Shown here piece after piece: positions 36,222 to 36,813 of a stretch of 64,000 nucleotides of DNA. Numbering within the stretch: position 1 is the first letter of the stretch; every line of letters starts with the position of its first letter. Origin of the DNA: Patescibacteria group bacterium (GTDB lineage: Bacteria; Patescibacteriota; UBA1384; 2-12-FULL-50-11). Location: positions 280,962 through 344,961 of the forward strand of contig BOKZ01000001.1 in NCBI GenBank assembly GCA_016861245.1, in the 5' to 3' direction. The position numbers were made by a program, and so were the translations under genes. Below the pieces are notes generated by a model that was not told where the DNA came from, made no database searches, and was given only the letters and a program-made list of their open reading frames with translations.

Positions 36222-36813
36222 TGGCTCTGGAGGTCGGATTCGAACCGACGACCAATCGGTTACACGTACCCACTAGTTTCCTAATGGCGTGGACCATCTC
36301 TTCATCCTCGTGGGATGCGGGGCGTATGGCCTCTGAACCTTCCTATTACTAGGCTTGGCTGCGGATTACCGTGTTCTTGACAGAAAAACAGACGGCTTCC
36401 CGACAATTAACCCCGAGTTTCAACCTCAATCGCTTGAGGAAGCTGCGTAACACCGGCATGTACCTCTCGGTGACAGTTAGCGCAGAGTAGATAACAGTTA
36501 TCTAACTCTTGCTTAACTCGTTCCCAAGAACGTGTGTAGCCATTTTGTCCGATGCCGAATCGTTTTTTTGTCTCATCTTTGTGATGAAATTCTAGTACGT
36601 CGTTACATCGGCAATAGCCACATAACTGGCACTTGCCGCCTAAATATTCAACTGACATGGCTTTAATTTTCCGTCGCCGTTTAGCGACCGCCATCGTTAG
36701 ATACTTGGCTCTGTCGGCGTAAGTTCTTTTATCCGCCATGGTATATATATTAATGATAACCACTTTAGATAATTGTGCCACAGCCGATCGCTCTACCGCT
36801 GAGCTACTCCAGA
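36222..36813 (-). tRNA. tRNA-Asn(GUU) interrupted in the anticodon loop (between positions 35 and 36) by a ~517-nt intron.
   Basis: 5' exon at 36780-36813 (TCTGGAGTAGCTCAGCGGTAGAGCGATCGGCTGT). 3' exon at 36222-36262 (TAACCGATTGGTCGTCGGTTCGAATCCGACCTCCAGAGCCA). Joined, they give a canonical 75-nt cloverleaf with loop CUGUUAA, U1-A72, G73 and an encoded CCA. The 5' exon ends in U and the intron ends in G, consistent with group I rules. Confidence 0.7.
36407..36739 (-). CDS. HNH homing-endonuclease-like protein encoded inside the tRNA intron.
   Basis: CQLCGYC...LEFHHKDE...NCYLLCANCHREVH (His-Me finger). ATG at 36739, 40 nt into the intron. The longer ORF call to 36847 runs through the tRNA 5' exon and is rejected. 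Confidence 0.7.
   Translation of the reverse strand: MADKRTYADRAKYLTMAVAKRRRKIKAMSVEYLGGKCQLCGYCRCNDVLEFHHKDETKKRFGIGQNGYTRSWERVKQELDNCYLLCANCHREVHAGVTQLPQAIEVETRG

What the first reader, a model, noticed from the sequence alone, without database searches (positions are those of the whole stretch)
36222..36813. tRNA-Asn(GUU) gene split by a ~517-nt anticodon-loop intron encoding an HNH endonuclease
The two halves of a perfect tRNA lie about 520 bp apart. Spliced in silico they give a canonical tRNA-Asn with anticodon loop CUGU|UAA, U1-A72 and G73. The 5' exon ends in U and the intron ends in G, which are the group I splice-site rules. The intron carries a 110-aa His-Me finger (HNH) ORF of homing-endonuclease type.

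Bacterial tRNA group I introns are known for Leu(UAA), fMet, Arg and Ile but are rare overall. An Asn(GUU) insertion carrying an HNH ORF may be a new intron-insertion site.
Basis: partly seen in the sequence, partly recalled or inferred. Interest (0 to 1): 0.8.

Follow-up and report, generated by a model that had tools for sequence, protein, structure and literature searches.

The report
Known HNH-carrying intron in tRNA-Asn
The window holds a real tRNA-Asn gene interrupted in its anticodon loop by a self-splicing group I intron that carries an HNH homing-endonuclease gene, but this arrangement was already described and shown to splice in Patescibacteria in 2020-2026, so it is a correct but ordinary finding.

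Summary
On the minus strand, a 34-nt 5' exon (36813-36780) and a 41-nt 3' exon (36262-36222) are separated by a 517-nt intron. Joined, they give a canonical tRNA-Asn(GUU).

The intron is a bona fide group I ribozyme. It scores 69.9 bits against Rfam Intron_gpI (threshold 50). It has a U35·G wobble in P1 and a terminal G. P2-P9 are supported by covariation across 76 homologous introns.

The 110-aa HNH gene sits in the P1 loop. Its last about 13 codons and stop codon overlap the internal guide sequence, P2 and P3.

Related genomes carry an uninterrupted tRNA-Asn at the same syntenic site. Metagenomes hold many ORF-less versions of the same intron.

The novelty claim fails. Williams (2020, bioRxiv) listed this class as "Asn.4Ug". 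Nakagawa et al. (2026, mSystems) described 15 tRNA-Asn(GUU) introns at position 35/36 in Patescibacteria, four of them with HNH genes, and showed self-splicing in vitro for one tRNA-Asn intron. They also reported the same ARAGORN miscall, Thr(UGU) at 33/34, that I reproduced.

Minor additions from this work:
- the endonuclease gene lies in the P1 loop
- this copy lacks P7.1/P7.2
- relatives occur in at least 587 species genomes, including non-Patescibacteria

Interest is low.

The parts
36780..36813 (-). tRNA-Asn(GUU) 5' exon, tRNA positions 1-35. It ends ...GGCUGU, with U35 at 36780.
   Evidence: Sequence. ARAGORN calls the spliced product tRNA-Asn(gtt).
36263..36779 (-). Group I intron, 517 nt, inserted between anticodon-loop positions 35 and 36. 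First nt is G36779. The terminal (omega) G is 36263.
   Evidence: Rfam RF00028 at 69.9 bits, E = 1e-15. The same boundaries fit 78 of 78 distinct homologous loci.
36222..36262 (-). tRNA-Asn 3' exon (U36 A37 A38 ... G73 CCA).
36407..36739 (-). HNH (His-Me finger) homing-endonuclease ORF: 110 aa plus stop. It lies in the loop of P1. Codons 98 to the stop overlap the guide sequence, P2, J2/3, the P3 5' strand and J3/4.
   Evidence: Pfam HNH 20.7 bits and PHROG HNH E = 5e-26. More than 1000 homologs; all family-invariant residues (CxxC, HH, CANCH) are present.
36441..36447 (-). Internal guide sequence, the 3' strand of P1: C-GCAGCU. G36446 pairs with U35 as a wobble. C36445, A36444 and G36443 pair with G34, U33 and C32. 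C36442 and U36441 pair with G31 and G30. C36447 pairs with intron nt 1 (G36779).
   Evidence: GCAG is invariant in 78/78 HNH-bearing and 59/59 ORF-less introns. The pair across the splice site covaries (G-C, A-U, C-G, U-A, G·U): 69/74 and 55/59 canonical.
36424..36439 (-). P2 hairpin: CCUCAA-GCGA-UUGAGG, with a GNRA loop.
   Evidence: At least 75/76 canonical at each of the six pairs, with up to six pair types per position.
36411..36415 (-). P3 5' strand (CGGGG). It pairs with 36318-36322.
   Evidence: 72-74 of 75 canonical, with covariation.
36337..36405 (-). P4-P5-P6-P6a domain. P4 is 36405-36399 with 36365-36360. P5 is 36395-36392 with 36372-36369. P6 is 36359-36357 with 36339-36337. P6a is 36353-36351 with 36344-36342.
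   Evidence: Rfam alignment. Covariation for the outer P4 pairs, P6 and P6a. P5 is poorly aligned.
36326..36331 (-). P7 5' strand (GGCCAU). It pairs with 36292-36297 (AUGGUC).
   Evidence: The five inner pairs are canonical in every sequence where both bases align (74-76). The outermost pair (36326-36297) is canonical in 52/74. This copy carries compensatory changes relative to the family consensus GACUAU/AUAGUC.
36318..36322 (-). P3 3' strand (CCCCG). It follows P7 directly, with no P7.1/P7.2 helices in this copy.
36303..36317 (-). P8 hairpin: CAUCC-CACGA-GGAUG.
   Evidence: Covariation.
36292..36297 (-). P7 3' strand (AUGGUC).
36270..36287 (-). P9 hairpin: CCAUUAG-GAAA-CUAGUGG. It is followed by GUACGU and the terminal G at 36263.
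   Evidence: Covariation.

Best explanation
This is a functional tRNA-Asn(GUU) gene of a Patescibacteria (CPR) bacterium, probably near Berkelbacteria. It is interrupted between anticodon-loop positions 35 and 36 by a mobile, self-splicing group I intron.

Splicing (inferred from the anatomy and from a homolog's published assay):
- The gene is transcribed from the minus strand as one precursor.
- The intron folds so that its guide sequence GCAGCU (36446-36441) pairs with the exon end GGCUGU. This places U35 in a U·G wobble (P1).
- A free guanosine attacks after U35.
- The intron's terminal G (36263) then occupies the same site in P7, and the exons are ligated to give mature tRNA-Asn.

The endonuclease:
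- The loop of P1, which is only about 5-14 nt in most ORF-less relatives, here holds a 110-aa HNH endonuclease gene.
- The tail of that gene reads through the guide sequence, P2 and the P3 5' strand.
- The endonuclease most likely cuts intron-less tRNA-Asn genes near the 35/36 junction. Repair from an intron-containing copy then copies the intron in (homing).

What is shown here: the exons, the ribozyme core with covariation, the P1 pairing, intron-less and ORF-less alleles, and membership of the HNH family.

What is inferred: splicing of this particular copy, and cleavage activity and target of the HNH protein. Splicing has been shown in vitro for a homologous tRNA-Asn intron by Nakagawa et al. 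2026.
For: - Tool calls: ARAGORN calls the spliced product tRNA-Asn(gtt). Rfam Intron_gpI gives 69.9 bits, E = 1e-15.
- Family context: 77 of 80 genome loci encoding an HNH relative have that gene inside a split tRNA. All 82 resolved loci splice in silico to tRNA-Asn(gtt), with exon ...CTGT | intron ...G | TAA....
- Core helices: P2, P3, P4 (outer pairs), P6, P6a, P7, P8 and P9 are more than 90% canonical at most pairs across 76 distinct introns, with several pair types per position.
- P1: the guide sequence GCAG is invariant. The base pair spanning the splice site covaries in 74 HNH-bearing introns (69 canonical) and 59 ORF-less introns (55 canonical, six pair types). In 49 of the 59 ORF-less introns the guide sequence lies 5-14 nt from the splice site, against 333 nt here.
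- Empty sites: five syntenic loci from four distinct relatives (next to the LDcluster4 and beta-CASP genes) carry an uninterrupted tRNA-Asn(gtt). It matches the spliced sequence at 55-65 of 75 positions.
- HNH protein: the CxxC...HH...CANCH motifs are intact and more than 1000 homologs exist.
- Literature: the same class was described and one tRNA-Asn intron spliced in vitro at 35/36; four tRNA-Asn introns carried HNH genes (PMC13011429). The class appears as 'Asn.4Ug' in Williams 2020.
Against: - No experimental data exist for this copy.
- This copy lacks the P7.1/P7.2 helices that most relatives have, so its splicing efficiency is unknown.
- A P10 pairing (UAAC with GUUA) can be drawn here but is not conserved in relatives.
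- The Pfam HNH score is marginally below the curated cut-off.
- The single-sequence fold energy of the core is no better than shuffled sequence (z = -0.79). This is expected for a pseudoknotted ribozyme, but it gives no support.
- The rest of the genome is unseen, so I cannot show that this is the only tRNA-Asn gene.
Confidence: 0.93

Rival explanations
1. The gene is a tRNA-Thr(UGU) with the intron two bases further 5', between positions 33 and 34. This is how ARAGORN's intron mode calls it.
For: ARAGORN -i reports tRNA-Thr(tgt) i(33,517) for the window and for about half of the relatives. That reading also gives a U before the 5' splice site and a G at the intron end in this copy (...UACG|UG).
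Against: - In the Thr reading U33 would face A36444, not a G, so there is no wobble at the splice site. In the Asn reading U35 pairs with G36446.
- The covarying pair across the splice site fits only the Asn boundary.
- Family-wide, the Thr reading with a terminal G is possible in only 46 of 78 loci. The Asn reading fits 78 of 78.
- U1-A72 and G73 are present. From background knowledge, these are typical of bacterial tRNA-Asn.
- The syntenic uninterrupted gene in relatives is tRNA-Asn(gtt).
- Nakagawa et al. document this exact 2-nt miscall and sequenced the spliced product of a homolog.
Confidence: 0.02
2. The copy is a disrupted tRNA pseudogene. The intron or its ORF insertion has killed splicing, and another tRNA-Asn gene elsewhere serves the cell.
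For: - This copy lacks P7.1/P7.2.
- 333 nt are looped into P1, and the ORF runs through the guide sequence, P2 and P3. Translation could therefore compete with folding (inference).
- The rest of the genome is not visible.
Against: - Both exons are perfect and every core helix is intact. The changes in P7 are compensatory rather than disruptive.
- The compact spacing without P7.1/P7.2 recurs in other HNH-bearing and ORF-less introns.
- The identical element is present on 21 assembled contigs from different samples.
Confidence: 0.04
3. The intron splices, but the HNH ORF is no longer an active homing endonuclease. It could be a decaying passenger or have another role, such as assisting splicing.
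For: - The homing-endonuclease life cycle predicts frequent degeneration after fixation (general knowledge).
- Stop-codon position in the C-terminal tail varies among relatives.
- The Pfam score is just under the cut-off.
Against: - All 25 family-invariant residues, including both CxxC pairs, HH and CANCH, are present.
- More than 1000 full-length homologs exist at 55-80% identity, which argues for purifying selection on the protein.
- Empty target sites exist in relatives, so homing opportunities remain.
Confidence: 0.2

Closest known systems
Group I introns at position 35/36 of tRNA-Asn(GUU) in Patescibacteria (Nakagawa et al. 2026, mSystems, PMC13011429; class 'Asn.4Ug' of Williams 2020, bioRxiv 10.1101/2020.01.27.920355)
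   Same: Same host gene, same insertion point, same U(-1) and terminal G, and same ARAGORN miscall as Thr(UGU) at 33/34. An HNH (PF01844) endonuclease gene is present in the copies over 500 nt. The host phylum is the same.
   Different: This copy is not shown to be one of their 15. It lacks the P7.1/P7.2 helices seen in most relatives. The papers' text does not state where the ORF sits; here it is mapped to the P1 loop with its tail overlapping the guide sequence, P2 and P3.
Classical bacterial tRNA group I introns, subgroup IC3: cyanobacterial tRNA-Leu(UAA) at 34/35, Azoarcus tRNA-Ile at 36/37, tRNA-Arg(CCU) and tRNA-fMet at 33/34
   Same: Compact self-splicing introns in the anticodon loop. 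P1 is built from the anticodon stem-loop. GNRA loops cap P2 and P9.
   Different: The insertion position and host tRNA differ. The literature assigns the Patescibacteria family to subgroup IA, not IC.
Synechocystis tRNA-fMet intron encoding I-Ssp6803I, and other endonuclease-bearing tRNA introns listed by Nakagawa et al.
   Same: A tRNA anticodon-loop group I intron that carries its own homing endonuclease.
   Different: That enzyme is of the PD-(D/E)XK type and the cyanobacterial tRNA-Arg(CCU) ones are LAGLIDADG. Here the enzyme is a zinc-binding HNH.
HNH (En) domain of group II intron maturases, e.g. PDB 6ME0
   Same: It is the only solved structure found by profile search (E = 6e-5). It shares the CxxC...HH...N...CxxCH His-Me finger.
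   Different: The similarity is weak. That domain is part of a 562-aa reverse transcriptase and belongs to a different intron class.

Membership tests
Group I intron (Rfam RF00028) | Covariance-model score above the curated threshold | tested here: met
   69.9 bits against a gathering score of 50, E = 1e-15, full model 1-253.
Group I intron (Rfam RF00028) | [quoted passage not shown] | tested here: met
   U35 (36780) pairs with G36446. GCAG is invariant in 137 introns. The adjacent pair across the splice site covaries.
Group I intron (Rfam RF00028) | Terminal G at the intron 3' end | tested here: met
   G36263. All 78 distinct relatives end in G before TAA.
Group I intron (Rfam RF00028) | Conserved core helices P3-P9, including the P3/P7 pseudoknot | tested here: met
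   Covariation counts for P2, P3, P4, P6, P6a, P7, P8 and P9 across 76 introns.
Group I intron (Rfam RF00028) | Guanosine-dependent self-splicing | not testable with these tools
   Shown in vitro for a homologous tRNA-Asn intron (GCA_016700035.1) by Nakagawa et al., not for this copy.
Patescibacteria tRNA-Asn(GUU) 35/36 introns (Asn.4Ug) | Host gene is tRNA-Asn(GUU), interrupted between positions 35 and 36 | tested here: met
   ARAGORN on the spliced sequence. Syntenic intron-less tRNA-Asn in relatives. P1 geometry.
Patescibacteria tRNA-Asn(GUU) 35/36 introns (Asn.4Ug) | Host organism is in Patescibacteria | tested here: met
   The closest named homologs of the HNH protein and of the neighbouring gene are from Patescibacteria group and Candidatus Berkelbacteria (68-80% identity). 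This is an inference from names, not a phylogeny.
Patescibacteria tRNA-Asn(GUU) 35/36 introns (Asn.4Ug) | Structural subgroup IA (extra helices P7.1/P7.2) | tested here: inconclusive
   Most aligned relatives have 60-110 nt between the two P7 strands, with hairpins after P7. This copy has 29 nt and no such helices. Subgroup covariance models were not available.
HNH (His-Me finger) homing endonuclease | HNH catalytic motif with zinc-binding cysteines | tested here: met
   C37/C40, H52-H53, N88 and C86/C89-H90 are invariant in the family alignment. PHROG HNH E = 5e-26. Pfam 20.7 bits against a 21.4 cut-off.
HNH (His-Me finger) homing endonuclease | Encoded inside a self-splicing intron, with intron-less target alleles in the population | tested here: met
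   The ORF lies within the P1 loop. 77 of 80 homolog loci are intronic. Empty syntenic sites exist. ORF-less introns exist.
HNH (His-Me finger) homing endonuclease | Site-specific cleavage of the intron-less allele | not testable with these tools
   Needs an enzyme assay.
   No subgroup models were available. Nakagawa et al. found none of the Patescibacteria tRNA introns in IC.

The most novel reading that the evidence does not exclude
The HNH-bearing form of the tRNA-Asn intron may be an actively spreading element that crosses phylum boundaries. Relatives appear in MAGs labelled Patescibacteria, Blastocatellia, Omnitrophota and Elusimicrobia. Phage tRNA arrays are a possible vehicle or source.

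One 436-kb viral contig (L242) carries an ORF-less tRNA-Asn intron with a free-standing HNH homolog 33 nt downstream. That looks like the stage before the endonuclease gene invaded the P1 loop.

The window copy would then be the invaded end-state. In it, protein coding and ribozyme function share the same nucleotides (guide sequence, P2, P3).
Probability: 0.3. Interest if true: 0.4.

Novelty: already known. Interest (0 to 1): 0.15.

Why it matters
In practice it matters for annotation. Standard tRNA finders miss this gene or call it tRNA-Thr, so the genome would look as if it lacked tRNA-Asn and would be scored as less complete. Nakagawa et al. already made this point. Biologically it is one more example of a mobile ribozyme persisting in an essential gene of a very small genome. 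It opens no new question. The small additions here could feed a study of how homing endonucleases invade introns: the endonuclease gene in the P1 loop, the shared coding and ribozyme nucleotides, the wide phyletic spread, and the phage locus with a free-standing homolog.

Tried and rejected
- An exact 41-nt 3'-exon search of metagenome contigs, meant to find alleles in very close relatives, gave 0 hits.
- The single-sequence fold of the 185-nt core recovers the P2, P6a, P8 and P9 hairpins. Its energy is no better than shuffled sequence (z = -0.79), so this is uninformative.
- The promoter and terminator scan gave 2 promoter-like sites against 1.4 expected by chance. The only terminator belongs to the plus-strand sigma-factor gene. 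No claim is made about a separate promoter for the ORF.
- An alternative guide sequence, G[CU]GGU[CU]GAA about 19 nt downstream, pairs with up to 9 exon bases in some loci. I rejected it because it is the 3' strand of the covariation-supported P2 plus J2/3.
- Extension of P1 into anticodon-stem positions 31 and 30 does not covary. The guide sequence stays CU or CC whatever the exon base is.
- P10 (UAAC with GUUA) can be drawn in the window but is not conserved.
- A search of the Nakagawa supplements for HNH or PF01844 found nothing in the two files held.
- The PDB profile search gave only a weak group II maturase hit. I judged structure prediction unnecessary.
- None of the 80 best viral HNH relatives carries the intron signature, and none of the ARAGORN split-tRNA calls in those loci encloses the HNH gene. 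The relatives appear free-standing.

Full report
**1. The observation**

The feature is on the minus strand. Reading 36813 down to 36222 gives three segments:
- a 34-nt 5' exon, TCTGGAGTAGCTCAGCGGTAGAGCGATCGGCTGT
- a 517-nt insert, 36779-36263
- a 41-nt 3' exon, TAACCGATTGGTCGTCGGTTCGAATCCGACCTCCAGAGCCA

ARAGORN calls the joined 75-mer tRNA-Asn(gtt) with a regular cloverleaf, U1-A72, G73 and an encoded CCA. ARAGORN without introns and Rfam's tRNA model both miss it. They find only five other tRNAs in the window, none of them Asn.

Rfam's group I model matches 36540-36270 (-) at 69.9 bits against a gathering score of 50, with E = 1e-15. The ORF from ATG 36739 to the stop at 36409-36407 encodes 110 aa. 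Pfam HNH gives 20.7 bits, just under its 21.4 cut-off, and three PHROG HNH families give E = 5e-26 to 3e-23.

**2. Asn or Thr?**

ARAGORN in intron mode calls the locus tRNA-Thr(tgt) with the intron shifted two bases 5'. In this copy both readings leave a U before the intron and a G at its end. Four lines of evidence decide for Asn.

(a) Guide-sequence pairing. The intron segment GCAGCU (36446-36441) pairs with the exon end GGCUGU, and G36446 faces U35 as the wobble. In the Thr reading the splice-site U33 would face an A.

(b) Fit across relatives. I collected 80 genome loci that encode a relative of the HNH protein. In 77 of them the gene lies inside a split tRNA, and the other three contigs showed no split tRNA. 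All 82 resolved loci, counting the window and four identical contigs, can be read as ...CTGT | intron...G | TAA... and splice in silico to tRNA-Asn(gtt). The Thr reading with a terminal G is possible in only 46 of 78 distinct loci.

(c) Covariation across the splice site. The base just 5' of GCAG pairs with the first intron base.
- In 74 HNH-bearing introns: G-C 48, A-U 18, G·U 3, five mismatches.
- In 59 ORF-less introns from metagenomes: C-G 16, A-U 20, G-C 13, U-A 2, G·U 3, U·G 1, four mismatches.
This pair fixes the register of P1 across the 35/36 junction.

(d) Synteny. Five syntenic loci from four distinct relatives have an uninterrupted tRNA-Asn(gtt) at the same place, upstream of and divergent from the LDcluster4 and beta-CASP gene pair. 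It matches the spliced sequence at 55-65 of 75 positions.

**3. Anatomy of the intron**

The ORF-less relatives show the plain architecture: exon CUGU, a P1 loop that is short in most, GCAGC, then a P2 hairpin with a GNRA loop. In 49 of the 59 the guide sequence lies 5-14 nt after the splice site. In the window it lies 333 nt after it, and the extra sequence is the HNH gene. The endonuclease gene therefore sits in the loop of P1.

From the guide sequence to the terminal G, the window intron is 184 nt long, the shortest core in the HNH-bearing set. Its helices, in minus-strand window coordinates, are:

| Helix | 5' strand | 3' strand | Note |
|---|---|---|---|
| P2 | 36439-36434 | 36429-36424 | loop GCGA |
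| P3 | 36415-36411 | 36322-36318 | |
| P4 | 36405-36399 | 36365-36360 | |
| P5 | 36395-36392 | 36372-36369 | |
| P6 | 36359-36357 | 36339-36337 | |
| P6a | 36353-36351 | 36344-36342 | |
| P7 | 36331-36326 | 36297-36292 | |
| P8 | 36317-36313 | 36307-36303 | |
| P9 | 36287-36281 | 36276-36270 | loop GAAA |

After P9 comes GUACGU and then the terminal G at 36263.

I projected these pairs onto a MAFFT alignment of 76 distinct introns. P2, P3, the outer P4 pairs, P6, P6a, P7, P8 and P9 are more than 90% canonical at most pairs, with two to six pair types at most positions. P5 is poorly aligned.

Two features are particular to this copy, and both are shared with its closest relative L005 (88% core identity):
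- P7 reads GGCCAU/AUGGUC, where the family has GACUAU/AUAGUC. This is a compensatory change.
- The helices that most relatives carry between the P7 5' strand and the P3 3' strand (P7.1/P7.2) are absent. The spacing between the two P7 strands is 29 nt here, against 60-110 nt in most. Four other HNH-bearing introns and about a third of the ORF-less introns are similarly compact.

**4. Overlap of coding and ribozyme**

Codons 98-101 (Thr-Gln-Leu-Pro, ACG CAG CUU CCU) contain the guide sequence and the start of P2. The ORF then runs through P2, J2/3 and the P3 5' strand, and stops in J3/4.

Across relatives, CGCAGCUUCC or a one-base variant is kept even at synonymous positions. Q99, L100 and P101 are invariant or nearly invariant in the protein alignment. 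These nucleotides therefore appear to be under both RNA and protein constraint. Translation into the core could compete with ribozyme folding, as is known from phage introns. That is my background knowledge and was not tested here.

**5. Mechanism**

The best-supported account is the standard one.
- The precursor tRNA is transcribed.
- The intron folds, and an external guanosine attacks after U35.
- The terminal G replaces it in the P7 pocket and the exons are ligated.

The HNH protein keeps every family-invariant residue: two CxxC pairs, HH, and CANCH. It most likely cuts intron-less tRNA-Asn genes and drives homing. Two findings fit an element that is gained and lost: empty sites exist in syntenic relatives, and in a metagenome sample ORF-less introns outnumber ORF-bearing ones by about 3 to 1 (59 against about 19).

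Splicing of this copy and cleavage by this protein are inferred, not shown.

**6. Comparison with what is known**

The novelty claim does not survive a literature check.
- Williams (bioRxiv 2020, 10.1101/2020.01.27.920355) expanded the four classical intron-bearing bacterial tRNA classes to 21. Nakagawa et al. cite that paper's 'Asn.4Ug' class, meaning an intron after the fourth loop base, i.e. 35/36, and note that it is sometimes miscalled Thr.2Ug.
- Nakagawa et al. (mSystems 2026, PMC13011429; preprint July 2025) found 15 tRNA-Asn(GUU) introns at 35/36 in 95 complete Patescibacteria genomes.
- They showed precise self-splicing in vitro for one tRNA-Asn intron, with a terminal-G mutant control.
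- They reported that four tRNA-Asn introns carry HNH (PF01844) genes, and tabulated the ARAGORN and tFind miscall as Thr(UGU) 33/34.
- They assigned the introns to subgroup IA rather than IC.

The window organism fits that phylum. The closest named homologs of the HNH protein and of the adjacent gene are from 'Patescibacteria group bacterium' and Candidatus Berkelbacteria. In one such MAG the two genes are neighbours (WD157_01500 and WD157_01505).

**7. What goes slightly beyond the papers**

- The endonuclease gene is mapped to the P1 loop, with its tail overlapping the guide sequence, P2 and P3.
- This copy is a compact variant without P7.1/P7.2.
Among the best 80 are MAGs labelled Blastocatellia (one on a 2.9-Mb contig, larger than any Patescibacteria genome), Pyrinomonadaceae, Omnitrophota and Elusimicrobia. 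Nakagawa et al., working only with complete genomes, saw endonuclease-bearing 35/36 introns only in Patescibacteria.
- Viral contigs hold hundreds of more distant relatives (42-66% identity) that appear free-standing. In 76 of the 80 best loci they lie within 1.5 kb of tRNA genes.
- One 436-kb viral contig (L242) has a tRNA-Asn with a 227-nt ORF-less intron at 35/36 (Rfam 76.6 bits) and a free-standing HNH homolog 33 nt downstream.

These are leads, not established findings.

**8. Verdict**

The subgroup guess of IC3 is not supported by the literature, and the novelty claim is refuted. The element is a further example of a published, experimentally validated class. Interest is low.

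Noticed in passing
L242 1167-1758 (IMGVR_UViG_3300032782_000001, 436-kb viral contig): Inside a phage tRNA array there is a tRNA-Asn(gtt) split at 35/36 by a 227-nt ORF-less group I intron (Rfam 76.6 bits). A free-standing HNH homolog of the window's intron protein starts 33 nt downstream. This looks like the stage before an endonuclease gene invades an intron.
   Followed up: partly
L013, L025, L028, L041, L047, L069 (Blastocatellia/Pyrinomonadaceae); L010, L064 (Omnitrophota); L024 (Elusimicrobia): HNH-bearing tRNA-Asn 35/36 introns occur in MAGs labelled outside Patescibacteria, including a 2.9-Mb Blastocatellia contig (L047). 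The published survey of complete genomes found endonuclease-bearing 35/36 introns only in Patescibacteria. At least 587 species-representative genomes encode a relative of the HNH protein.
   Followed up: partly
window 36292-36331: This copy and L005 lack the P7.1/P7.2 helices present in most relatives. They also carry compensatory P7 changes (GGCCAU/AUGGUC against GACUAU/AUAGUC).
   Followed up: yes
window 36407-36448: The last about 13 codons and the stop codon of the HNH ORF overlap the guide sequence, P2, J2/3 and the P3 5' strand. CGCAGCUUCC is conserved even at synonymous positions across relatives, which implies dual RNA and protein constraint.
   Followed up: yes
window 47202-47322 (+): Rfam LOOT RNA (RF03000) match at 65 bits (gathering score 46.4), full length.
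   Followed up: no
window 41572-41645 (-): A tRNA-Ile with anticodon UAU (ARAGORN and Rfam, 74.8 bits). From background knowledge, most bacteria decode AUA with a CAU tRNA modified by TilS, so a UAU isoacceptor is uncommon.
   Followed up: no
window 34705-36165 (+): The neighbouring sigma-70 family protein is 486 aa long, but its sigma regions 2-4 end by residue 266. That leaves a C-terminal extension of about 220 aa with no Pfam match.
   Followed up: no
L002 3334-6333 (Logan SRR32295234 contig): The identical intron and HNH gene sit next to the same LDcluster4 and beta-CASP genes. On the other side the sigma-factor gene is replaced by unrelated small genes (AHSA1, DUF1801 and others). The breakpoint of this rearrangement is right beside the tRNA.
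   Followed up: no
L210-L289 (viral contigs): Phage relatives of this HNH protein (42-66% identity, HNH domain only) lie within 1.5 kb of tRNA genes in 76 of the 80 loci fetched. They appear to be free-standing endonuclease genes in phage tRNA arrays.
   Followed up: partly
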